Shown here one piece after another: positions 6,922 to 18,644 of a stretch of DNA of 25,065 bases; position 1 is the first letter of the stretch, and each line of letters begins with the position of its first letter. This DNA is from Gaiellaceae bacterium (GTDB lineage Bacteria; Actinomycetota; Thermoleophilia; Gaiellales; Gaiellaceae), in the NCBI GenBank assembly GCA_033857355.1, contig JAWVDL010000058.1, positions 1-25,065 on the forward strand. The letters are read 5' to 3'. A program made the translations under genes and the position numbers. The notes beneath the pieces are model-generated. The model had not been told where the DNA came from. It did not search any database and saw only the letters and a program-made list of their open reading frames with translations.

Positions 6922-7775
6922 GCGCTGCCGATCTGGAGGGAGAGCAGGAGGTCGATCTCGGCCGCTACGGCAGTGCGCTCGCAGCGCGATGGTGGCTGCC
7001 GGTGGCCGGCCTGATCCTCGGCGCGGTGCTCGGATACCTGCTCTCGGTCGGCGGCAAGCAGACCTTCAGCGCCCAGGCTGTCCTCTATCCCGGCACCCCG
7101 TACTCGCCGAGCGGCGGGAACGCGATCCAGAGCCCGCAGACGAATCCGGCGAGCATCCGCGCGATCGTCAAGTCGGAGTCGACGCTCCGGCGCGTCTCCG
7201 CCGACGTCGGGATCCCGGTCGCGAAGCTGCGCTCGGGCACCTCCGCGAACGTCGTGGGCGGGACGGTGCCGAAGACCGGCCAGGTGCCGCTCTACGCAAT
7301 CACCGTCAAGGGAGGCCAGCCGGCGAAGATCGCCCGTGCGGCGAACGAGCTGGCGCGGATCGCCGTCGCGGGCGTCTCGGCGGGCTATGTCGACACGAAG
7401 ATCGCCTCGCTGCAGGCCCAGGTGACCTCCGACCAGCAGCAGCTCACCTCGATCGACCAGGAGGTGGGGCGCATCGAGGCGACCCTCCCGCGTGTAGGGG
7501 CGAGCGACCGGATCGCCGCAGCCGCGCTCGTGCTCGCAGCGCAGCAACGTCGGGCGGTCGTCCAGCAGGATCTCCTCGCGGTCCGGCCGCTGCTCGCGCA
7601 GGCGCAGACCGTCGAGCGCGGGAGGATCCTCACCCGTGCGGTGGCCAGCAAGGCAACCGCACGCAGCCGCCGGAACTCGATCGTGGTCGCCGCGCTGATC
7701 GGCCTCATCCTCGGCGGCCTCGCCGCGCTCGCCTGGGAGCGCTTCGCCGCACGCGAACCCCGCCGCCCGGCCTAG
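6918..7775 (+). CDS. Wzz/PCP-like polysaccharide chain-length determinant (no kinase domain)
   Basis: N-terminal TM (RWWLPVAGLILGAVLGYLL), Gln/Ala-rich coiled-coil middle, C-terminal TM (NSIVVAALIGLILGGLAALAW). Confidence 0.75.
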   Translation: MSAADLEGEQEVDLGRYGSALAARWWLPVAGLILGAVLGYLLSVGGKQTFSAQAVLYPGTPYSPSGGNAIQSPQTNPASIRAIVKSESTLRRVSADVGIPVAKLRSGTSANVVGGTVPKTGQVPLYAITVKGGQPAKIARAANELARIAVAGVSAGYVDTKIASLQAQVTSDQQQLTSIDQEVGRIEATLPRVGASDRIAAAALVLAAQQRRAVVQQDLLAVRPLLAQAQTVERGRILTRAVASKATARSRRNSIVVAALIGLILGGLAALAWERFAAREPRRPA

Positions 7776-7790
7776 TACGCTCAGCGCGGG

Positions 7791-8732
7791 ATGCTCGAAG
7801 GGAAGACCGTCGCGGTCGTCGTGCCCGCGTACAACGAGGAGCGGCTGATCGCGGAGACCATCGCCGGGATCCCCGACTTCGTCGACCGCATCGTCGTGGT
7901 GGACGACAAGTCGCGTGACGCAACCGTCGAGCGGGCGCGCGCGGCGGGCGACCCGCGCGTCGAGGTCGTCGTCCACGAGAAGAACCAGGGCGTCGGCGCC
8001 GCGATCGTCACGGGCTACAAGCGAGCGCTGGCCGAGCGGGTCGACGTGACCGCCGTGATGGCAGGCGACAACCAGATGGATCCGGCCGAGCTCGAGTCGC
8101 TGGCAGGCCCCGTCGCGCGCGGGGAGCTCGACTATGCCAAGGCGAACCGCTTGTTCACGGGCCAGGCGTGGCAGCAGATCCCGCGGTACCGCTATCTCGG
8201 CAACGCCGTCCTCTCGCTCTTCACCAAGATCGCGTCCGGGTACTGGCACGTCGCCGACTCGCAGGCGGGCTATACGGCGGTCGGCCTCCCGATGCTGGAG
8301 CTGCTCGACCTCGACCGGATCTACAAGAGCTACGGCTTTCCGAACGACATCCTCGTGCACCTCAACGTGTGGAACGCCCGGGTCCGCGACATTCCCTCAC
8401 GCCCGATCTACGGCGTGGGCGAGAAGAGCGGGATCAAGGTGCGAAAGGTCGTTCCGCGCATCTCGTGGCTGCTCGTGAAGGGCTTCTTCTGGCGGATGCG
8501 CGAGAAATACGTGATCCGCGACTTCCACCCGCTCGTGTTCTTCTACATGCTCGGGTTCGCGATGACCTTCCTGGGCCTCGCGCTCGGAATCTTCGAGACC
8601 GTGCTGCGGATCATGGGCCACGGGATCCCGGCGGCGACGATCGTGCTCGTCGCGCTCCTCCTCATCTCCGGCTCGCAATTCGTGCTCTTCGGCATGTGGT
8701 TCGACATGGAGTCGAACAAAGACCTGCGTTAG
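7791..8732 (+). CDS. Glycosyltransferase family 2 (DPM-synthase/GtrB-like, two C-terminal TM helices)
   Basis: VVVPAYNEE, VVDDKSRD, NQGVGAA, MAGDNQMDP, DSQAGYTA motifs. Confidence 0.9.
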   Translation: MLEGKTVAVVVPAYNEERLIAETIAGIPDFVDRIVVVDDKSRDATVERARAAGDPRVEVVVHEKNQGVGAAIVTGYKRALAERVDVTAVMAGDNQMDPAELESLAGPVARGELDYAKANRLFTGQAWQQIPRYRYLGNAVLSLFTKIASGYWHVADSQAGYTAVGLPMLELLDLDRIYKSYGFPNDILVHLNVWNARVRDIPSRPIYGVGEKSGIKVRKVVPRISWLLVKGFFWRMREKYVIRDFHPLVFFYMLGFAMTFLGLALGIFETVLRIMGHGIPAATIVLVALLLISGSQFVLFGMWFDMESNKDLR

Positions 8733-11054: not shown

Positions 11055-12089
11055 GTGACGCAGCTTGTCGTCGGAGGCGCCGGCTTCATCGGCGCGAACC
11101 TGGCCGACCACCTCCTCGAATCCGGGTCGGATGTCGTCATCGCCGACGACTTCTCCCGTGTCGGCTCGCGAGAGAACGTGCGCTGGCTTTCGACGCGCCA
11201 CGCGGGTTTGAGGGTGGAGGCGGCCGACGTGGCGCGCGGGCCGGAGGTTCTCGAACCGCTCGTCCGGGGCGCAAGCGTCGTGTACCACTTCGCCGGCCAG
11301 GTCGCCGTGACCAAGTCGATCGAAGATCCGCGGCGCGACTTCGAGGTCAACGCTCTCGGCACCCTCAACCTTCTCGAAGCCGTGCGCGCGGCGAATCCCG
11401 AAGCCGTGCTGGTCTACGCGTCGACGAACAAGGTGTACGGAGCGCTCGAGGATCTGCCCGTCGAGGAGGAGGACACGCGCTACGCGTTCTCCGGCGGGCG
11501 CACGGGCATCGACGAAGGCCAGCCGCTCGACTTCCACTCTCCGTACGGGTGCTCGAAAGGGGCGGCCGACCAGTACGTCGCCGACTACTCCCGCACGTAC
11601 GGTCTTCGAACGATCGTCCTGCGCCAGTCGTGCATCTACGGCCAGAGGCAGTTCGGCGTCGAGGACCAGGGCTGGCTGGCCTGGTTCGCCATCGCAGCAG
11701 CACTCGGTCGCGAGATCACGATCTTCGGGGACGGCAAGCAGGTGCGTGACGTGCTCCACGTCGGCGACCTGGTCGACCTGATCGGGCGGGCGGTCGCGAA
11801 GAGCGAGAGCGTTCGCGCGCAGGTCTACAACGTCGGCGGGGGTCCCGAGGCAGCCGTGTCGCTGCTCGAGGCGATCGGCTTGATCGAACGGCACCTTGGT
11901 CGACCGCTGGACGTTTCGTTCTCGGAAGCCCGAACGGGCGATCAGCGGATCTACGTCAGCGACACCCGGCGCGCGCGGGACGAGCTCGGCTGGCAGCCAC
12001 GGGTGGGAGTGCGCGACGGGATCGCGCAGCTCATGGGCTGGATCGAGGCGAACCGGTCGCTCTTCGCGGTCGAGAGCTCGCCCGCCTGA
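11055..12089 (+). CDS. Extended SDR, CDP-paratose/CDP-tyvelose 2-epimerase-like
   Basis: VVGGAGFIG, HFAGQVAVTKS, YASTNKVYG, SPYGCSKGAADQY, LRQSCIYG, GDGKQVRDVLHVGD; GTG start after GAG at 11055. Confidence 0.85.
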   Translation: MTQLVVGGAGFIGANLADHLLESGSDVVIADDFSRVGSRENVRWLSTRHAGLRVEAADVARGPEVLEPLVRGASVVYHFAGQVAVTKSIEDPRRDFEVNALGTLNLLEAVRAANPEAVLVYASTNKVYGALEDLPVEEEDTRYAFSGGRTGIDEGQPLDFHSPYGCSKGAADQYVADYSRTYGLRTIVLRQSCIYGQRQFGVEDQGWLAWFAIAAALGREITIFGDGKQVRDVLHVGDLVDLIGRAVAKSESVRAQVYNVGGGPEAAVSLLEAIGLIERHLGRPLDVSFSEARTGDQRIYVSDTRRARDELGWQPRVGVRDGIAQLMGWIEANRSLFAVESSPA

Positions 12090-12097
12090 GCTACGAT

Positions 12098-12113
12098 ACG
12101 AACATATGTTCGT
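12098..12113. promoter_or_regulatory. LexA (SOS) box ACGAACATATGTTCGT overlapping the dinB start; -10 TACGAT at 12092-12097
   Basis: Perfect 16-bp palindrome matching the Gram-positive/actinobacterial CGAAC-N4-GTTCG consensus, directly at an SOS gene. Confidence 0.9.
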
Positions 12114-13302
12114 GTTGCCCGAGGCGACGATCCTCCACGCCGACCTCGACGCGTTCTTCGCCTCCGTCGAGCAGCGGGACGATCCGAGCCTCCGCGGCCG
12201 GCCGGTGATCGTCGGCGGGGGAGTCGTGCTCGCGGCGAGCTACGAGGCGAAGGCTCGCGGTATCCACTCGGCGATGGGCGGCGCGCAGGCTCGACGGCTC
12301 TGTCCTGACGCGATCGTGGTGCCACCGCGCATGTCGGCCTACGCCGACGCGAGCAAGGCGGTTTACCGCGTGTTCGAGGACACGACGCCGCTGGTCGAAG
12401 GGCTGTCGATCGACGAGGCGTTCCTGGACGTCAGCGGGATGAGGCGACTCGCCGGCAGCCCGATGGAGATCGCGGTCCGGCTGAAGCGCGAGGTCCGCGA
12501 ACACGTGGGGCTGCCGATCACCGTCGGCGTGGCCCGCACGAAGTTCCTCGCCAAGGTGGCTAGCGGGGTAGCCAAGCCCGACGGGCTCCTGGCCGTGCCG
12601 CCGTACCGGGAGCTCGCCTTCCTCCACCCACTGGCCGTGGAGCGGCTCTGGGGCGTCGGTCCGGTCACCGCGGACAAGCTCCGGTCGCGAGGGATCACGA
12701 CGGTCGGCCAGGTGGCGCAGCTTGCGGAGCCGATCCTCGTCTCGATGCTGGGCCGCGGAGCAGGTCGGCAGCTCCACGCGCTCGCGCACAATCGCGACCC
12801 GCGTGCGGTCCGGGTCGGCCGCCGTCGCGGCTCGGTCGGCTCGCAGCGCGCGCTGGGACGTTCGCGGAAGTCCGCCGAAGCCGTCGACGCCGTGCTCGTC
12901 TCGCTGGTCGACCGGGTCGCGAGACGGTTGCGGGCCGCGGATCGCGTCGGTCGCACGGTCGTCCTGCGATTGCGCTTTGCGGACTTCTCGCGGGCGACGC
13001 GGTCGCACACGTTGTCCTACGCGACCGAGAACACCCGAACGATCCTCGCGACGGCGAGAGGGCTGCTCACGGTTGCCATGCCGACGATCGAGCGCCGGGG
13101 GCTGACGCTGGTCGGCGTTTCGGTCGCGAACCTCGAAAACGATCTCCCCGCGCAGCTCATGCTGCCGCTCGACGGCTACTCGAGCGGAGCTCTGGACACC
13201 GCACTCGACGAGGTGCGAGTCCGGTTCGGCTCGGAGGCGATCACCCGAGCCGTGCTCCTCGGCCGCGACCAGGGACTGTCGCCGCCGCTCCTCCCGGATT
13301 GA
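12106..13302 (+). CDS. dinB: DNA polymerase IV (Y family)
   Basis: ILHADLDAFFASVEQ, AASYEAKARG, LSIDEAFLD, KFLAKVASGVAKPDG, LWGVG motifs; C-terminal little-finger domain. Confidence 0.95.
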   Translation: MFVLPEATILHADLDAFFASVEQRDDPSLRGRPVIVGGGVVLAASYEAKARGIHSAMGGAQARRLCPDAIVVPPRMSAYADASKAVYRVFEDTTPLVEGLSIDEAFLDVSGMRRLAGSPMEIAVRLKREVREHVGLPITVGVARTKFLAKVASGVAKPDGLLAVPPYRELAFLHPLAVERLWGVGPVTADKLRSRGITTVGQVAQLAEPILVSMLGRGAGRQLHALAHNRDPRAVRVGRRRGSVGSQRALGRSRKSAEAVDAVLVSLVDRVARRLRAADRVGRTVVLRLRFADFSRATRSHTLSYATENTRTILATARGLLTVAMPTIERRGLTLVGVSVANLENDLPAQLMLPLDGYSSGALDTALDEVRVRFGSEAITRAVLLGRDQGLSPPLLPD

Positions 13303-13311
13303 CCCGCTCGG

Positions 13312-13377
13312 TCAGGCCGGCAGCAGCTCCAGACGAACTGTGAACAGTCTGAGCAAACGGCGATATCGGTGACGCAT
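13312..13377 (-). CDS. Unannotated 21-aa small ORF MRHRYRRLLRLFTVRLELLPA
   Basis: ATG 13377-13375, TGA 13314-13312; strong SD GAGGAGGGAG just upstream; ECF-type promoter copy A upstream. Confidence 0.65.
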   Translation of the reverse strand: MRHRYRRLLRLFTVRLELLPA

Positions 13378-13397
13378 CTTTCTCCCTCCTCTCTGCT

Positions 13398-13429
13398 CTC
13401 AGGACGGATTCGCGGCCGCGCTTCTTCCC
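13398..13429 (-). promoter_or_regulatory. ECF-type promoter copy A: GGGAAGA-N16-CGTCCTGAG
   Basis: -35 at 13429-13423, -10 CGTC at 13406-13403; same geometry as three other copies. Confidence 0.8.
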
Positions 13430-13451
13430 TGGACGCCCGAACTGCGATTTC

Positions 13452-14021
13452 ATGGAGGACGTGCCTGCCGAAAGCGCCACCGCCGCAGAGCTCGTCGCCC
13501 GCTGCCGGGCCGGCGACCAGGACGCCTGGCGCGCGCTCGTCGAGCGGTTCTCGCGCTACGTCTTTGCGATCGCCGTCCAGGGCTTCCGGCTCCCGGAGCA
13601 TGCGGCCGAGGATGTCTTCCAGGAGGTCTTCGCCCGAACCTACGAGCACCTCGACCGGCTCCGCGACGACGCGGCGATTCAACCCTGGCTCGCCCAGCTC
13701 ACGCGCAGGCTCTGCATCGACCATCTGCGCGCTTCGTCGCGGGAGCAGCTCGAGGAAGAGCCCGAGCCCGACGTCGCGGAGGACACGTTCGAGCGCCTGG
13801 ACGATGCGCTCGCGGTGCACGAGGCGCTGGCCGAGCTGCCCGAGCAATGCGGGGAGATCCTCGACCGGTTCTTCGCGCGCGACGAGAGCTACCGGACGAT
13901 CGGCGAGCTCCTCGGCTTGCCTGCGGGAACCATCGCCAGCCGGATCTCGCGGTGCCTCGCAAAGCTGCGCGAGCACTTCGAGGGAAGAAATCCGTCCCCC
14001 AGCCCGTCTGGTGATCGATGA
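13452..14021 (+). CDS. ECF RNA polymerase sigma factor (sigma70 group IV)
   Basis: DQDAWRALVERFSRYVFAIA, AEDVFQEVF, WLAQLTRRLCIDHLR (region 2); LAELPEQCGEIL...SYRTIGELLGLPAGTIASRISRCLAKLR (region 4). Confidence 0.95.
   Translation: MEDVPAESATAAELVARCRAGDQDAWRALVERFSRYVFAIAVQGFRLPEHAAEDVFQEVFARTYEHLDRLRDDAAIQPWLAQLTRRLCIDHLRASSREQLEEEPEPDVAEDTFERLDDALAVHEALAELPEQCGEILDRFFARDESYRTIGELLGLPAGTIASRISRCLAKLREHFEGRNPSPSPSGDR
13982..14013 (+). promoter_or_regulatory. ECF-type promoter copy B inside the 3' end of the sigma gene: GGGAAGA-N16-CGTCTGGTG
   Basis: -35 at 13982-13988, -10 CGTC at 14005-14008, ATG of the next gene at 14018. Confidence 0.8.
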
Positions 14022-14272
14022 CCCATTACGACGAAGACCGGCTGGCTGCGCTGCTGCGCGTACTTCCGCCCGCTCCGAGAGGGTGGGTCACGGCTGCCCA
14101 GGAGCTGCCTCTGGCGCGCCGAGGGCTCGACGAGATCGTCGCCCGTGCCGAAGCCGACGCCGAGTTCAGGGCGCGGCTCGTCGCCGACCTCGAAGCCGCG
14201 CTCGAGGCCGAGGGCTACGAGCGGGACCCGGCCGTGCTCGAGGCGCTCCGGCAGCGTTTGGCCGGCGGTTGA
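14018..14272 (+). CDS. 84-aa soluble protein; candidate anti-sigma factor with an NHLP-leader-like C-terminal half
   Basis: ATGA overlap with the sigma gene; EIVARAEADAEFRARLVADLEAALEAEGY resembles NHLP-clan leaders; no TM helix; ends in GG. Confidence 0.75.
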   Translation: MTHYDEDRLAALLRVLPPAPRGWVTAAQELPLARRGLDEIVARAEADAEFRARLVADLEAALEAEGYERDPAVLEALRQRLAGG

Positions 14273-14859
14273 GCGAAGCCGACGACCTGCTTGGTCTGAG
14301 CGTCGGCGAGCTCCTCGACGAGCTGGCTTCGTCGGCTCCCGTTCCCGGATCTGGGTCGGCCTCCGCGCTCGTTGCGGCGATGGCCGCCGCGCTCGTGTCG
14401 ATGGCCGCGCGGCTTGCCTCCGACTGGGAGGACGCGTCGGGTGTCGCCGCCCAGGCAGACGCGCTGCGGATCCGCGCGGGCCGGCTCGCGCAGCTCGACG
14501 CAGAGGCGTACGGCGCCGTGCTCGAGCTCCGCGAGGCTCCTCTGGAGGAGCGACCCGAGGATCGAGACTTCCGTCTCGGAGGAGCGTTCTCGCACGCGGC
14601 GGACGTGCCGCTCGAGATCGCCGGCGTCGCCGAGGACGTCGCGGAGCTTGCAGCGCTCGTCGCCCACGCGAGCGCGCTCGCGCCGCGGGCGGACGCCGCC
14701 GGGGCGGCCGTGCTGGCGGCTGCGGCCGCCCGGAGCGCGGCGAGCCTCGTGGCGATCAACCTGTCGGTGGCGGAAGGCGATCCTCGCCCCGTGCGTGCTC
14801 GTGCGCACGCCCAGGCGGCCGAGCTCGCTGCTCGGCGCGCGCTCGAGGCGTCGGGCTAG
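14269..14859 (+). CDS. Cyclodeaminase/cyclohydrolase family protein (FTCD C-terminal domain-like)
   Basis: TTGA overlap; LLDELASSAPVPGSGSASALVAAMAAALVSM, DAEAY, AADVPLEIA, VAINL motifs. Confidence 0.85.
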   Translation: MSEADDLLGLSVGELLDELASSAPVPGSGSASALVAAMAAALVSMAARLASDWEDASGVAAQADALRIRAGRLAQLDAEAYGAVLELREAPLEERPEDRDFRLGGAFSHAADVPLEIAGVAEDVAELAALVAHASALAPRADAAGAAVLAAAAARSAASLVAINLSVAEGDPRPVRARAHAQAAELAARRALEASG

Positions 14860-14863
14860 CCGG

Positions 14864-14895
14864 AAAGACAAAAGCCGCCCGGCGTCCGAGCGGCT
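14864..14895 (-). terminator. Intrinsic terminator for the 67-aa gene (possibly bidirectional)
   Basis: Minus-strand stem AGCCGCUCGG/CCGGGCGGCU (one U-G pair) with a 3-nt loop, then UUUGUCUUU; lies between convergent stop codons. Confidence 0.7.
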
Positions 14896-14916
14896 CCTGT
14901 CTCTCCTGTGCTCGCC

Positions 14917-15120
14917 TCAGGCCGGCGCGGCGATTGCGGGCGCCGCGGCTTCGCGGACTCGGCGGTGGGCGAAGACCGGGCCCAGCGAGCTCAGTGCGCG
15001 CCGGACGCGGTGCTCACGCGGAACGGCCTCGGCGGCCAGGCGGTAGCGGGCCGCCTCGCGCAAGAGATCGTCGTTGCGGGCTCTGGCGAGTTCTTGCATC
15101 ACATATGGGTGGGACTGCAT
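14917..15120 (-). CDS. 67-aa hypothetical helical protein
   Basis: SD AAGGAG before the ATG, ECF-type promoter copy C upstream, terminator downstream; MQSHPYVMQELARARNDDLLREAARYRLAAEA... Confidence 0.75.
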   Translation of the reverse strand: MQSHPYVMQELARARNDDLLREAARYRLAAEAVPREHRVRRALSSLGPVFAHRRVREAAAPAIAAPA

Positions 15121-15148
15121 TTGCGGCTCCTTGCTCGTCGGTGACGAC

Positions 15149-15180
15149 TACTAGACGGGGGCCGCGTTGCTTTTCTTCCC
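15149..15180 (-). promoter_or_regulatory. ECF-type promoter copy C: GGGAAGA-N16-CGTCTAGTA
   Basis: -35 at 15180-15174, -10 CGTC at 15157-15154. Confidence 0.8.
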
Positions 15181-15197
15181 TTGTAGGCTCGCTGCCG

Positions 15198-16016
15198 ATG
15201 TCGCACGAGCCCCTCCCCGCCTGGAGCCTCCGGCCCGATGCCGTCGAGGAGCTCGCGGCCGCTACGGACTGGCCCGAGCGCATGACGCGCGACTGGGCCT
15301 GGGGCGGTGCGACCGGCTCGGGAGTTCGGGTCTGCATCCTCGACAGCGGCATCGAGCCCGGGCATCCGCTCGTCGGCGCGGTCGACCGGTCGGTGGCGCT
15401 CAGCGGCGAGGGCGACGACGTGACGGTCGCGGAGGACGCCGAAGGCGACCTGTGCGGACACGGGACGGCGTGCGCCGGCATCGTTCGCTCGATCGCGCCC
15501 GACTGTTCCATCTCGAGCGTCCGCGTGCTCGGGGCGGGGTACACGGGCAGCGGAAGCATCCTGCTGGCGGGTCTGCGGTGGGCGATCGAGCAGGAGTACG
15601 ACGTGATCAACATGAGCCTGTCGACCACGAAGCGTCAGTTCGCGAGCACCTTGCACGAGCTCGCCGACAGCGCCTATTTTCGGCGGACGATGCTCGTCGC
15701 CTCGGCCCACAACATGCCCGTCGAGAGCTATCCCTGGCGGTTCGCCTCGGTCATCTCCGTCGGCAGCCACGAGGACGACGACCCGCTCGCCTACTACTAC
15801 AACCCGCGCCCGCCGGTCGAGTTCTTCGCGCGCGGGCTCAACCTCGAGGTCGCCTGGCTCGGCGGCGGCACCCTGCACGTGACGGGGAACAGCTTCGCGA
15901 CGCCCCACATGACGGCGATCTGCGCCCTCGTCCTGAGCAAGCACCGCGAGCTGACGCCGTTCCAGCTCAAGAGCCTGCTCTACCTGACCGCGTCGAACGT
16001 GGGAGGCGAGGGATGA
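15198..16016 (+). CDS. S8 family (subtilase) serine peptidase, cytoplasmic, no obvious signal peptide or long propeptide
   Basis: Catalytic motifs CILDSG (Asp), HGTACAG (His), VASAHN (oxyanion Asn), GNSFATP (Ser); start at ATG 15198, 8 nt after TAGGCT. Confidence 0.92.
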   Translation: MSHEPLPAWSLRPDAVEELAAATDWPERMTRDWAWGGATGSGVRVCILDSGIEPGHPLVGAVDRSVALSGEGDDVTVAEDAEGDLCGHGTACAGIVRSIAPDCSISSVRVLGAGYTGSGSILLAGLRWAIEQEYDVINMSLSTTKRQFASTLHELADSAYFRRTMLVASAHNMPVESYPWRFASVISVGSHEDDDPLAYYYNPRPPVEFFARGLNLEVAWLGGGTLHVTGNSFATPHMTAICALVLSKHRELTPFQLKSLLYLTASNVGGEG

Positions 16017-16663
16017 GCGAGGAGGAGCTTCGGGCAGCGGTCGCGGCCGGCGTGCTCGGCGCGGAGGAGTCGTTCCAGAGCCTCTTGCAGTCGGTTGTCG
16101 AGGTCGCCCGGGCGATCTTCCGCGCGCAGGCGTCGTCCATCTTCCTGCTCGACGAGCAGACGGACGAGCTGGTTTTCGAAGCGGTCGCCGGCGAGGGCGC
16201 CGACACGCTCCGCGGCCGCCGTTTTCCGTCGAGCACCGGCGTCGCCGGGTGGGTGCTGGTCGCCCGCCAGCCGCTCGTGATCGAGAACGTCGGCGAGGAT
16301 CCTCGCTTCGCCCGTGAGGCCGCCGAGAGCACGGGCTACGTCCCGAAAGGGCTCATGGCGGTCCCGCTCCTGCACGAAGAACGTGCGCTCGGCGTGCTCG
16401 AAGTGCTCGACCGGCCGCAGGAGGCGGCCTTCAGCCTCGCCGAGATCGAGCTCCTGGGCCTTTTTGCGAATCAGGCTGCGATCGCGCTCGACCTGCTCCG
16501 GCGGGCGCGACGAGCGCAAGCCGCTGTGCAGGGCAGCCAGCTCGCCGTCGTCGCGCGGATCGCCCGCGCCCTCGACGAAGAGCCCAGGCGCCGGAAGGAT
16601 GCCACGCTTCGTCTGCTCGAGGCGATCGAGGAGCTGCTCGCCGACCGCCCCGAGAACGACTGA
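16013..16663 (+). CDS. Stand-alone GAF domain protein
   Basis: ATGA overlap with the peptidase; SSIFLLDEQTDELVF, GVAGWV, DPRF, LMAVPL...LGVLEVLDR, FANQAAIAL; short C-terminal helix and no output domain. Confidence 0.9.
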   Translation: MSEEELRAAVAAGVLGAEESFQSLLQSVVEVARAIFRAQASSIFLLDEQTDELVFEAVAGEGADTLRGRRFPSSTGVAGWVLVARQPLVIENVGEDPRFAREAAESTGYVPKGLMAVPLLHEERALGVLEVLDRPQEAAFSLAEIELLGLFANQAAIALDLLRRARRAQAAVQGSQLAVVARIARALDEEPRRRKDATLRLLEAIEELLADRPEND

Positions 16664-16681
16664 GCCCGGCCGAAGCCGGGC
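16664..16681. terminator. GC-rich hairpin GCCCGGC-CGAA-GCCGGGC between convergent genes
   Basis: Perfect 7-bp stem; reads as a c(UUCG)g tetraloop on the minus strand; no clear U-tract. Confidence 0.55.
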
Positions 16682-16708
16682 CCAGTTCGAAGAGTCGAGA
16701 CCGACGGG

Positions 16709-16873
16709 CTAGGGCTCGTTGCGGTCCGTCTCGCTTTCCATCCCGGCGTCATTCCGTCCGATGTCGGCACGGCCCACGTCGGCCCGTCCTACGTCGTACC
16801 GATGAGCCTCGACATCCGGCTCCTCTTTCTCGTCCTCTGCGGAGCGGACATGCTCGTCCTGTCCTTCTGACAT
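16709..16873 (-). CDS. 54-aa acidic peptide with tandem DxGRx repeats (precursor-like)
   Basis: SD AAGGAGGAG before ATG 16873; MSEGQDEHVRSAEDEKEEPDVEAHRY-DVGRA-DVGRA-DIGRN-DAGME-SETDRNEP; ECF promoter copy D upstream. Confidence 0.75.
   Translation of the reverse strand: MSEGQDEHVRSAEDEKEEPDVEAHRYDVGRADVGRADIGRNDAGMESETDRNEP
16742..16795 (-). repeat. 15-bp-period coding repeat (DVGRA/DVGRA/DIGRN/DAG)
   Basis: GAC GTA GGA CGG GCC / GAC GTG GGC CGT GCC / GAC ATC GGA CGG AAT / GAC GCC GGG. Confidence 0.8.
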
Positions 16874-16912
16874 TTCTCCTCCTTCCGGAAGGTCCGCGCG
16901 ATCTGCGCTACA

Positions 16913-16944
16913 CACCAGACGCGGAATCCTGGCCGAATCTTCCC
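16913..16944 (-). promoter_or_regulatory. ECF-type promoter copy D: GGGAAGA-N16-CGTCTGGTG
   Basis: -35 at 16944-16938, -10 CGTC at 16921-16918; the 9-nt -10 region is identical to copy B. Confidence 0.8.
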
Positions 16945-16988
16945 ACGTCGCTCTTCCAAAACACAATCGGCACTGCGATCCTGCGCGC

Positions 16989-18644
16989 GTGAAGCCGGCA
17001 AACCGCCTCGGCGACTCGTTGCACGCGTTCCGCGACGTCTTCCGGAATCGCGATCTGCGACGCCTCGAGCTCGCCTGGGCGGGCTCGATGATCGGCACCT
17101 GGGCGTACGGCGTCGGGCTCGTGGTGTTCGCGTACGAGGCCGGCGGTGCGACGGCGGTCGGCCTCGTCGGCTTCGCCCGCTGGACGGCGGCGGCGCTGGC
17201 GGCTCCGCTGACCGGAGCGCTCGGCGACCGGCTGCCACGGGCGCGCGTGATGGTCGGAGCAGACGCGATTCGCGCGGTGACGCTGGTGGCAGCCGCGGCG
17301 GTGGTGTTCGCCAACGCCCCGGTCTGGATCGTCTACGTGCTCTCGGGAGTGGTTGCGGTGACCTCTACGGCCTTTCGGCCGGCTCAAGCGGCGCTCGTGC
17401 CGTCGCTCGCCCAGACGCCGCAGGAGCTGACCGCGGCAAACGTCGTCGCCACGACGATCGAGAGCGCGGGGATCTTCATTGGCCCTGCGCTCGGCGGCTT
17501 CCTGCTCGCGGTCTCGTCCACGGGCGTCGTCTTCCTCGTCACCGCTGCGACCTTCGTCTGGTCGGCCGCGCTCGTGCTGCGGATCACGCCGAAGCCCGCG
17601 CCGAAGCCAGAGGAGGGTGCGGCGCGAGAGCCGTTTCTCGCGCACGCAGCCGGCGGCTTCCGCGCGATCGCGGGCGACAAGGGCCTGCGCGTGCTCGTCG
17701 GTCTCCTCGCCGCGCAGACCTTCGTCATGGGGGCCTTGAGCGTGCTGGTCGTGGTTGCGTCGATCGAGGTCGTGGGCCTCGGCAGCTCCGGCGTCGGGAT
17801 CCTCAACTCGGCGCTCGGTGTCGGCGGGCTTCTCGGCGCGGTCGCAGCGGCCGTGTTCGTGGGGCGCGAGCGGCTCGCGGTCGGGTTCACCCTCGGGATC
17901 GTGCTCTGGGGACTGCCGATCGCGCTCATCGGCATCTGGCCGAGTGCCGTTCTCGCAGTGGTCATGCTCGGCTGCGTCGGTGTCGGGAACACCGTCGTCG
18001 ACGTCGCCGGGATGACGTTGCTCCAGCGGTCGGCCGCCGACGCGGTGCTTGCGCGGGTCTTCGGCGTGCTCGAGAGCCTCATCGTCGGCTCGATCGCGCT
18101 CGGGGCGGCCGCCGCGCCGCTGCTGATCGCTGCTGTCGGCGCGCGTGGCGCGCTCGTCGTCACCGGCGCCTTTCTCCCGGTCCTCGTCGCGCTCACGTGG
18201 CGGAGGTTGTCGGTGATCGACTCAAGCGCAACCCCGCCCCTCGCCCGCGTGGCGCTGCTGCGCGCGATTCCGATTTTCGCGCCGCTCCCGGCGCCGGCCC
18301 TCGAACGGACGGCGTCGCGCCTCGTCCCCGTGCAGGCCGCCGCGGGCACCGAGATCATCCGGGCCGGCGAGCCCGGCGATCGCTTCTACATCGTCGAGAG
18401 CGGCGAGGTGGAGATCCTGCCGGAGGCGAACGATCCGTCGCTGCACGGGCCGGGGGCCTACTTCGGGGAGATCGCCCTCCTGCGGGACTTGCCCCGAACG
18501 GCCACCGTCCGCGCCCGCAGCGACGTCGCGCTCCTCGCGCTTGCGCGCGACGACTTCCTTGCCGCGGTCAACGGCGATCCCGAGAGCCGCCAAGCGGCGG
18601 ACATGGTCGTCATGTCGCGCCTCGCGCCGTCGGTGCCCGTCTAG
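16989..18644 (+). CDS. MFS transporter fused to a C-terminal cyclic-nucleotide-binding domain
   Basis: TGALGDRLPRARVM (motif A), many TM segments; C-terminal LLRAIPIF...GEPGDRFYIVESGEV...YFGEIALLRDLPRTATVRA. Confidence 0.9.
   Translation: MKPANRLGDSLHAFRDVFRNRDLRRLELAWAGSMIGTWAYGVGLVVFAYEAGGATAVGLVGFARWTAAALAAPLTGALGDRLPRARVMVGADAIRAVTLVAAAAVVFANAPVWIVYVLSGVVAVTSTAFRPAQAALVPSLAQTPQELTAANVVATTIESAGIFIGPALGGFLLAVSSTGVVFLVTAATFVWSAALVLRITPKPAPKPEEGAAREPFLAHAAGGFRAIAGDKGLRVLVGLLAAQTFVMGALSVLVVVASIEVVGLGSSGVGILNSALGVGGLLGAVAAAVFVGRERLAVGFTLGIVLWGLPIALIGIWPSAVLAVVMLGCVGVGNTVVDVAGMTLLQRSAADAVLARVFGVLESLIVGSIALGAAAAPLLIAAVGARGALVVTGAFLPVLVALTWRRLSVIDSSATPPLARVALLRAIPIFAPLPAPALERTASRLVPVQAAAGTEIIRAGEPGDRFYIVESGEVEILPEANDPSLHGPGAYFGEIALLRDLPRTATVRARSDVALLALARDDFLAAVNGDPESRQAADMVVMSRLAPSVPV

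What the first reader, a model, noticed from the sequence alone, without database searches (positions are those of the whole stretch)
13398..16944. Four copies of a bipartite ECF promoter GGGAAGA-N16-CGTC define a local regulon
The copies are 13429-13403 (-), 13982-14008 (+), 15180-15154 (-) and 16944-16918 (-). All have GGGAAGA, an exact 16-nt spacer and CGTC, and two share the full CGTCTGGTG. The spacers are unrelated, so this is not a duplication. Each copy sits just upstream of a start codon in the correct orientation, and all four lie within 3.6 kb of an ECF sigma gene. GGAA-type -35 and CGT-type -10 elements are typical of ECF promoters. A rough estimate assuming about 70% GC gives about 0.02 chance copies of the 11 fixed bases in this window.
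Basis: partly seen in the sequence, partly recalled or inferred. Interest (0 to 1): 0.85.

Follow-up and report, generated by a model that had tools for sequence, protein, structure and literature searches.

The report
Sigma-factor promoters driving small genes
Four copies of one two-part promoter motif around an alternative (ECF) sigma factor gene in a soil Gaiellales bacterium are real; the same motif sits before the same small genes in about a hundred related genomes, so this is a genuine, mostly local sigma-factor regulon of an ordinary kind whose target genes are uncharacterised.

Summary
GGGAAGA-N16-CGTC occurs four times at the stated coordinates, against 0.02 expected. The interpretation, ECF-type promoters forming a local regulon, is strongly supported by comparative genomics. 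No transcript data could be obtained.

- **Motif.** It extends to GGGAAGAW-N15-CGTC-Y-N-G-T. In the 2.02-Mb assembly (a 71%-complete MAG) only these four sites fit. They score 29-40 bits on a weight matrix; the next best site scores 13.8.
- **Conservation.** In 99 orthologous sigma loci from Gaiellales genomes, 94 carry the motif inside the 3' end of the sigma gene, just before the conserved 84-aa downstream gene. The start codon is usually 9 nt after CGTC, so the transcript is probably leaderless.
- **DNA-level selection.** The motif is kept in all three reading frames of the sigma tail. It moves with the 84-aa gene where that gene is unlinked.
- **Other targets.** Further copies precede two recurrent small-protein families: acidic DVEAH tandem-repeat proteins and basic 60-75-aa proteins.
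- **Co-occurrence.** Ten relatives with the sigma gene hold 36 motif hits; ten without it hold 3.
- **No self-activation.** No copy lies upstream of the sigma gene itself.

The wiring resembles Corynebacterium glutamicum sigH-rshA. Verdict: a new member of a known kind, of moderate interest.

The parts
13399..13429 (-). Promoter copy 1 (GGGAAGAA-N15-CGTCCTGA). It is divergent from the sigma gene; the first G lies 23 nt from the sigma ATG.
   Evidence: 30.8 bits. The same divergent placement, at -23 to -26, occurs in 12 of 99 orthologous loci.
13312..13377 (-). 21-aa basic ORF with a strong Shine-Dalgarno (SD) sequence, 25 nt after copy 1.
   Evidence: Read from the sequence. Same-length homologues follow the same promoter in genus-level relatives L022, L023 and L057. 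Coding status is inferred.
13452..14021 (+). ECF sigma factor gene (189 aa; regions 2 and 4 only).
   Evidence: Pfam Sigma70_r2 and r4, and TIGR02937 at 94.6 bits. Orthologues at 55-89% identity in 20 of 40 relatives.
13982..14012 (+). Promoter copy 2, inside the last 13 codons of the sigma gene. CGTC ends 9 nt before the ATG of the next gene.
   Evidence: 40.4 bits. 94 of 99 orthologous loci have a site here. It is kept in three reading frames.
14018..14272 (+). 84-aa helical protein with sub-threshold similarity to NHLP-clan proteins. It is the conserved first target and the candidate sigma partner; the transcript is probably leaderless.
   Evidence: below family cut-offs; alignment A1; 60 of 79 orthologues have the strict motif, and 18 of the other 19 a one-mismatch variant; helical model, pLDDT 71.
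14269..14859 (+). FTCD_C (cyclodeaminase-fold) gene. It overlaps the previous stop (TTGA), so it is probably co-transcribed from copy 2.
   Evidence: Pfam PF04961 at 92 bits. Present in 50 of 60 full loci, either after the 84-aa gene or before the sigma gene.
15150..15180 (-). Promoter copy 3 (GGGAAGAA-N15-CGTCTAGT).
   Evidence: 36.1 bits. The orthologous site in L022 precedes the orthologous gene.
14917..15120 (-). 67-aa basic helical protein with an SD sequence, 33 nt after copy 3.
   Evidence: Family members follow the motif in many loci, often 8-11 nt after CGTC, which implies leaderless transcripts. Database relatives are all named hypothetical protein, apart from one stray automatic label.
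16914..16944 (-). Promoter copy 4 (GGGAAGAT-N15-CGTCTGGT).
   Evidence: 29.4 bits.
16709..16873 (-). 54-aa acidic protein with a DVEAH motif and an SD sequence, 44 nt after copy 4.
   Evidence: 41 distinct motif-preceded proteins carry 1-6 DVEAH-type repeats.
15198..16663 (+). Subtilase (S8) and GAF genes, overlapping by ATGA. They are conserved neighbours without the motif and are divergent from copy 3.
   Evidence: Present in 46 of 60 full loci.
16989..18644 (+). MFS transporter fused to a cyclic-nucleotide-binding domain. It is a conserved neighbour without the motif and is divergent from copy 4.
   Evidence: Present in 48 of 60 full loci.

Best explanation
The four sites are promoters read by RNA polymerase carrying the ECF sigma factor encoded at 13452-14021. 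The -35 element is GGGAAGAW and the -10 element is CGTCYNGT, with the 16-nt spacing (GGGAAGA to CGTC) typical of ECF promoters. When the sigma is active it transcribes four units. (1) From a promoter embedded in its own last codons, a probably leaderless mRNA for the 84-aa protein plus the FTCD_C gene. (2) The 67-aa basic protein. (3) The 54-aa acidic DVEAH protein. (4) A 21-aa ORF divergent from the sigma gene. The sigma does not activate its own gene through this motif. If the 84-aa protein is its inhibitory partner, which is inferred from position only, the circuit is a negative feedback loop like C. glutamicum sigH-rshA. What is shown: the motif, its rarity, its conservation, its placement and its co-occurrence with the sigma gene. 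What is inferred: which sigma reads it, the transcription start sites, and the roles of the small proteins.
For: Rarity: 4 sites against 0.02 expected. The extended pattern hits only these 4 in 2.02 Mb. Weight-matrix scores are 29-40 bits, against 13.8 for the next best site.

Conservation: all 19 orthologous loci first fetched carry the strict motif. There are 124 strict sites in 460 kb of 80 further loci, where the density in G000 outside this locus (5 in 2.0 Mb) predicts about 1 (my arithmetic).

Independent positions: among 75 sites that do not precede the 84-aa gene, the base 3 nt after CGTC is G in 75 of 75 and the next is T or A in 70 of 75. Neither position was used for selection.

DNA-level selection: in the sigma tail the motif is read in frames 2, 0 and 1 (78, 7 and 4 loci). 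The sigma stop codon falls anywhere from 17 nt before to 31 nt after the end of CGTC. In G017 the 84-aa gene lies 4 kb from the sigma gene. There the motif sits before the 84-aa gene, inside the 3' end of a TPR gene, and the sigma protein lacks the tail.

Placement: of 133 non-redundant sites matching the extended pattern, 47% have a start codon 6-12 nt after CGTC (peak at 9) and 45% have an SD-led start at 17-87 nt. At random control positions the figures are 12% and 16%.

Co-occurrence: 36 extended hits in 10 relatives with the sigma gene, against 3 in 10 relatives without it. The reversed-pattern control gave about 0.

Same target families at unlinked sites in other genomes.

Geometry: it matches published actinobacterial ECF consensus sequences, namely SigR GGGAAT(G/C)-16 nt-(C/G)GTTG and C. 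glutamicum PrshA with the -35 element TGGAAGA (PMC3489674).
Against: There are no transcript 5' ends. The only public run found holds fragmentary contigs. The G000 assembly shows about 20 sigma-like candidates in the first look, so assigning the motif to the adjacent sigma rests on linkage and co-occurrence only. The relatives are kin, so the counts overstate independence. The assembly is 71% complete, so remote targets may be missing. The -35 element has AAG where many ECF promoters have AAC.
Confidence: 0.85

Rival explanations
1. The sites are genuine ECF-type promoters, but they are read by another sigma factor of the genome, either a paralogue or a sigma acting in a cascade, and not by the adjacent one.
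For: The first look found about 20 sigma-like candidates in G000. G007 has two paralogous sigma/84-aa modules, both with the motif. In G024 a motif copy precedes another sigma-like gene.
Against: The motif lies inside this sigma gene's 3' end in 94 of 99 loci. It is near background in 10 relatives that lack this sigma.
Confidence: 0.07
2. The motif is an operator for a DNA-binding regulator that is not a sigma factor and is co-inherited with the cluster.
For: Co-occurrence with the locus cannot separate the sigma from the other genes of the cluster.
Against: The motif is asymmetric and directional. It has a fixed 16-nt spacer without sequence conservation. It sits at promoter distance from start codons, including 9 nt before leaderless starts. 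No cluster gene other than the sigma has a recognised DNA-binding domain.
Confidence: 0.04
3. It is an RNA-level signal, such as a processing site, or a by-product of a conserved protein tail (EGR...PSG) of the sigma factor.
For: Copy 2 lies in coding sequence and is translated as EGR...PSG in most orthologues.
Against: The motif is read in three different frames. Its -10 part sometimes lies beyond the sigma stop codon. Half of all sites lie outside the sigma gene and show the same extended motif. The tail is absent where the 84-aa gene is unlinked. The two motif halves are not complementary to each other (read from the sequence; no fold was run).
Confidence: 0.02

Closest known systems
Corynebacterium glutamicum sigH-rshA with the SigH-dependent PrshA promoter (Busche et al. 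2012, PMC3489674)
   Same: A promoter dependent on the sigma lies within the sigma coding region and drives the gene immediately downstream. The -35 element is TGGAAGA, against GGGAAGA here. The authors read the wiring as a means of fast shut-off.
   Different: PrshA starts 62-66 nt before rshA, whereas here CGTC ends about 9 nt before the ATG, so the transcript is probably leaderless. RshA is a known anti-sigma factor; the 84-aa protein here has no cysteine and only sub-threshold NHLP-clan similarity. The -10 element is CGTC, not GTT. The sigma here is not close to SigH.
Generic ECF (group 4) sigma promoters and regulons (Casas-Pastor et al. 2021, PMC7826278; Todor et al. 2020, PMC7776599)
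   Same: A two-block motif with a 16-18-bp spacer, near-consensus sites, small regulons and genes co-encoded with the sigma.
   Different: There is no autoregulatory site upstream of the sigma gene in any of 99 loci. About half of ECF sigmas are reported to autoregulate, so pipelines that mine upstream regions would miss this motif. The ECF group could not be assigned; no supplementary tables were available.
Cluster-situated ECF sigmas of peptide natural-product clusters, e.g. MibX/MibW of microbisporicin (from my own knowledge, not checked here)
   Same: An ECF sigma inside a gene cluster drives promoters before small peptide genes and cluster operons.
   Different: No recognised peptide-modifying enzyme is present, only a subtilase. 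The partner protein is soluble. The peptides here (DVEAH repeats) belong to no described class.

Membership tests
ECF sigma-dependent promoter | Two conserved blocks separated by a spacer of fixed length (16-18 bp) and free sequence | tested here: met
   GGGAAGAW-N15-CGTCYNGT in 147 non-redundant sites, with spacer columns near background.
ECF sigma-dependent promoter | A cognate sigma with regions 2 and 4 only, genetically linked | tested here: met
   189-aa protein with Sigma70_r2 and r4, and TIGR02937 at 94.6 bits. The motif lies inside its 3' end in 94 of 99 loci.
ECF sigma-dependent promoter | Correct orientation and distance to the genes it drives | tested here: met
   92% of 133 sites are followed by a start codon at leaderless or SD-led distance, against 28% at random positions.
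ECF sigma-dependent promoter | Transcription starts a few nucleotides after the -10 element and depends on the sigma | not testable with these tools
   No usable RNA data. The start-codon peak 9 nt after CGTC is only indirect support.
Autoregulated ECF sigma (the common textbook circuit) | A copy of the target promoter upstream of the sigma gene or its operon | tested here: not met
   0 of 99 loci have a same-orientation site of 18 bits or more within 400 nt upstream. In G000 no other site exceeds 13.8 bits.
Sigma / ZAS anti-sigma pair (SigH-RshA, SigR-RsrA type) | The downstream partner has the HxxxCxxC zinc motif | tested here: not met
   The 84-aa protein has no cysteine and no cysteine column is conserved in alignment A1.
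NHLP-type RiPP precursor (for the 84-aa target) | Score above the family cut-off, and a conserved Gly-Gly cleavage motif followed by a core peptide | tested here: not met
   PF14407 scores 38 bits against a cut-off of 48, NF038399 32 against 40, and TIGR03793 16.5 against 50.9. The C-terminal GG is not conserved and nothing follows it.

The most novel reading that the evidence does not exclude
The regulon is the control layer of an undescribed ribosomal-peptide module that is widespread in Gaiellales. An ECF sigma is held by a soluble NHLP-like partner. On release it fires leaderless or short transcripts for tandem-repeat DVEAH precursor proteins. These are cut by the signal-less subtilase (with its GAF partner) and handled by the MFS transporter that carries a cyclic-nucleotide-binding domain.
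Probability: 0.25. Interest if true: 0.75.

Novelty: new member of a known kind. Interest (0 to 1): 0.55.

Why it matters
It provides a precise and testable promoter model, and a regulon, for an ECF sigma family of Gaiellales, an abundant soil actinobacterial order with almost no cultured members. No experimental genetics on this order turned up in the searches made here. It also shows that a target promoter can be maintained inside a dedicated C-terminal tail of the sigma gene, across three reading frames. Methods that mine regions upstream of sigma genes would miss such a case. Finally, it marks three families of unannotated small proteins as co-regulated, most notably the DVEAH tandem-repeat proteins. 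That makes them a defined entry point for studying the conserved sigma/subtilase/GAF/MFS cluster.

Tried and rejected
- **RNA evidence.** One public run was found, holding only fragmentary contigs of relatives. It gave no read ends, no strand information and no start-site information.
- **Literature.** Searches for the motif, for an ECF link to cyclodeaminase or Gaiella, for DVEAH/DVEGH and for Franean1_4349 found nothing relevant. No supplementary tables of the ECF classification paper were available, so the ECF group was not assigned.
- **Small proteins.** Pfam and NCBIfam found no family for the 67-aa, 54-aa and 21-aa proteins. The homologue search for the 67-aa protein returned only close relatives, nearly all named hypothetical protein. 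The protein atlas gave only unnamed actinobacterial clusters for the 84-aa protein.
- **Structure.** AlphaFold2 on the 84-aa protein gave a helical model of modest confidence (pLDDT 71, pTM 0.37). I did not fold-search it because matches would be unreliable.
- **Consensus scans.** The sigma-70 promoter and terminator scan found nothing in 13200-17100.
- **Rejected explanations.** A repeat or mobile element, chance or composition, and a protein-coding constraint on the sigma tail.
- **Other strict hits.** The five other strict hits in G000 (contigs C68, C89, C190, C329, C341) fail the extended pattern. The best of them scores 13.8 bits, so I count them as background.
Full report
**Observation.** The pattern GGGAAGA-N16-CGTC occurs exactly four times in the 25-kb window: 13403-13429 (-), 13982-14008 (+), 15154-15180 (-) and 16918-16944 (-). 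Dinucleotide-preserving shuffles give 0.02 matches on average, and none of 100 reaches four. One mismatch adds a single site, which is at chance level. The spacers and flanks are unrelated, and no longer repeat surrounds the copies.

The window is contig C58 of a 2.02-Mb metagenome-assembled genome (MAG) with 386 contigs, 70% G+C and 71% estimated completeness. In the whole assembly the strict pattern occurs nine times, four of them within this 3.6 kb. Other spacer lengths give 1-11 hits. By my arithmetic, four or more of nine hits falling in one 3.6-kb stretch has a probability of about 1e-6, even after allowing for all possible stretches.

**Genes**.
- dinB: 11896-13302 (+).
- 21-aa basic ORF with a strong Shine-Dalgarno (SD) sequence: 13377-13312 (-), 25 nt after copy 1.
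- ECF sigma factor: 13452-14021 (+).
- 84-aa protein: 14018-14272 (+). Its ATG overlaps the sigma stop and lies 9 nt after the CGTC of copy 2, so copy 2 sits within the last 13 codons of the sigma gene.
- FTCD_C-fold gene: 14269-14859 (+), overlapping the previous stop.
- 67-aa basic protein: 15120-14917 (-), 33 nt after copy 3.
- Subtilase 15198-16016 (+) and GAF protein 16013-16663 (+).
- 54-aa acidic protein: 16873-16709 (-), 44 nt after copy 4.
- MFS transporter with a cyclic-nucleotide-binding domain: 16989-18644 (+).

Three of the four copies lie back to back with the start of a larger divergent gene (sigma, subtilase, MFS).

**Relatives.** A search of 40 related genomes found an orthologous sigma (55-89% identity) in 20 of them. 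I fetched 19 loci of about 12 kb, and every one carries at least one strict copy of the motif. A scan of species-representative genomes with an alignment of the 84-aa protein found 539 encoding stretches. The 80 best come from MAGs labelled Gaiellaceae, Gaiellales, Thermoleophilia or more broadly Actinomycetota. Of 79 orthologues of the 84-aa gene with usable upstream sequence, 60 have the strict motif within 70 nt. Of the other 19, 18 have a one-mismatch variant: TGGAAGA or AGGAAGA at -35, or GGTC or AGTC at -10. These 80 loci (460 kb) hold 124 strict sites. The density in G000 outside this locus predicts about one.

Positions that played no part in selecting the sites are conserved:
- The base after GGGAAGA is A or T.
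- The base after CGTC is T or C.
- The third base after CGTC is G, and the fourth is T or A.

Among 75 sites that do not precede the 84-aa gene, and so are free of that gene's coding or translation constraints, the third base after CGTC is G in 75 of 75 and the fourth is T or A in 70 of 75.

The extended pattern GGGAAGAW-N15-CGTC-NN-G-W hits only the four window sites in the whole assembly. On a weight matrix built from 147 sites they score 29-40 bits, against 13.8 for the next best position in 2.02 Mb. The four sites are themselves among the 147, which is a small circularity.

In ten fairly complete relatives with the sigma gene, the extended pattern occurs 1-5 times per genome, 36 in all. 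The reversed control pattern occurs once in total.

**Selection acts on the DNA, not on the sigma protein.** In 89 non-redundant loci with a site at the sigma 3' end, GGGAAGA is read in all three frames (78, 7 and 4 loci). The sigma stop codon lies anywhere from 17 nt before to 31 nt after the end of CGTC. The tail translates as EGR, then five or so variable residues, then PSG. That is the promoter's own conservation pattern.

G017 supplies a natural control. There a cyclase/STAND-ATPase/TPR gene, itself interrupted by a transposase gene, lies between the sigma gene and the 84-aa gene. The sigma protein ends without the tail. The motif sits directly before the 84-aa gene, inside the 3' end of the TPR reading frame.

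**Placement.** Of 133 non-redundant sites matching the extended pattern, 62 have an ATG or GTG that opens an ORF of at least 40 aa at 6-12 nt after CGTC, with a sharp peak at 9 nt. Another 60 have an SD-led start at 17-87 nt. At random control positions the shares are 12% and 16%. A start codon 9 nt after the -10 block leaves no room for a leader. The peak therefore most simply marks the transcription start itself, giving leaderless mRNAs, which are common in Actinobacteria (my knowledge). This is indirect evidence only.

**Targets recur**. Besides the 84-aa gene, the motif precedes:
- Small acidic proteins with 1-6 repeats of an acidic run followed by DVEAH and two or three basic residues. 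There are 41 distinct proteins, 35-130 aa long and 32% Asp+Glu on average. The window's 54-aa protein is a member with a single repeat.
- Basic helical proteins of 57-76 aa related to the window's 67-aa protein, often at leaderless distance.
- The 21-aa ORF, found only in genus-level relatives.
- In single genomes, proteins with signal-peptide-like N-termini, and one further sigma-like gene.

Several of these sites are unlinked to the sigma locus, so in relatives the regulon is mostly but not strictly local. None of the small proteins matches a Pfam or NCBIfam family. The literature search found nothing on the DVEAH motif.

**Link to the sigma factor.** In 99 sigma loci, 94 have a same-orientation site at the sigma 3' end. 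Twelve have a divergent site whose first G lies 23-26 nt before the sigma start, as in the window. None has a same-orientation site within 400 nt upstream of the sigma gene or of an FTCD_C-sigma operon. Ten relatives without the sigma gene hold 3 extended hits in about 32 Mb, against 36 in the ten relatives with it. Six of the ten without it belong to the same family as the window's genome. Kin are not independent, so I treat this as supportive and not as a statistic. One clade uses GGTC in place of CGTC before the 84-aa gene and, in four of nine loci, at the second promoter as well. Elsewhere GGTC occurs once against 107 CGTC sites. This hints at a shared reader whose specificity drifted.

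**How it most likely works.** The holoenzyme carrying this sigma binds GGGAAGAW at -35 and CGTCYNGT at -10. It transcribes the 84-aa gene (with FTCD_C) and the small-protein genes. It does not raise its own transcription through this motif. The 84-aa protein is always next to the sigma gene, except in rearranged loci, and it is small and helical. It is the obvious candidate for a sigma-binding partner. If it inhibits the sigma, the circuit is a self-limiting pulse generator. That step is inference.

The published precedent is C. glutamicum. There a SigH-dependent promoter inside the sigH coding region, with -35 element TGGAAGA, makes a monocistronic rshA transcript, which the authors interpret as a means of fast shut-off (PMC3489674). 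That paper also quotes the SigR consensus GGGAAT(G/C)-16 nt-(C/G)GTTG, which has the same geometry as the motif here. About half of ECF sigmas are reported to autoregulate (PMC7776599), so the lack of autoregulation here is not exceptional.

**Context.** Sigma, the 84-aa gene, FTCD_C, subtilase, GAF and MFS-cNMP form a conserved neighbourhood. They occur in 60, 60, 50, 46, 46 and 48 of 60 loci with full flanks, respectively. My data add the promoter model, and they show that DVEAH repeat proteins are regular targets. They do not test proteolysis.

**Limits.**
- No transcript ends could be obtained.
- The sigma's ECF group was not assigned.
- Its nearest solved relatives are only distantly similar.
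- G001 is flagged as unpublished, and I did not use its locus L005. It contributes at most one or two of the pooled sites and one 21-aa homologue.

**Verdict.** This is a new, well-delimited member of a known kind, an ECF sigma regulon, with uncharacterised target genes.

Noticed in passing
window 16709-16873 (-); also L028, L037, L042, L046, L049, L050 and L059-L134: A family of small acidic proteins (35-130 aa) with 1-6 tandem units: an acidic run, then DVEAH (variants DVEGH, DFEGH, DVELH), then 2-3 basic residues. They almost always follow the sigma motif. No Pfam family and no literature were found.
   Followed up: partly
window 15181-15200 (+): A TANNNT-like hexamer (TAGGCT) lies 8 nt before the subtilase ATG and abuts the opposite-strand -35 element of copy 3. 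L022 has TAGACT at the same place. This could be a back-to-back divergent promoter pair with a near-leaderless subtilase mRNA.
   Followed up: no
L039 6498-10471 (G017): A cyclase/STAND-ATPase/TPR gene lies between the sigma gene and the 84-aa gene. It is interrupted by a DDE transposase gene at 7411-8721. The sigma motif lies in the 3' end of the TPR reading frame.
   Followed up: partly
L048 701-1299 (G024): A motif copy at an unlinked site precedes another gene with a Sigma70_r2 domain. This could be a sigma cascade.
   Followed up: partly
L022 and L029 (G007): One genome carries two paralogous sigma/84-aa modules, each with the motif at the sigma 3' end, so cross-talk is possible.
   Followed up: no
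window 14018-14272; alignment A1: The terminal Gly-Gly of the 84-aa protein is not conserved among orthologues, which end in NG, DT, DG, AS, SD and others. This argues against a double-glycine leader function. The invariant block is LPPxPxxWxxAAxE, near the N-terminus.
   Followed up: partly
window 14005-14020: The bases between CGTC and the ATG include GGTGATC, which is complementary to the 3' end of 16S rRNA (from my own knowledge of that end). The 84-aa gene may therefore also be translated from the longer sigma transcript.
   Followed up: no
L077, L079, L084, L124, L052: In some relatives the motif precedes proteins of 120-220 aa with signal-peptide-like N-termini.
   Followed up: no
L083-L134 subset: One clade uses GGTC in place of CGTC as the -10 core at the 84-aa gene promoter and, in some loci, at the second promoter.
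   Followed up: partly
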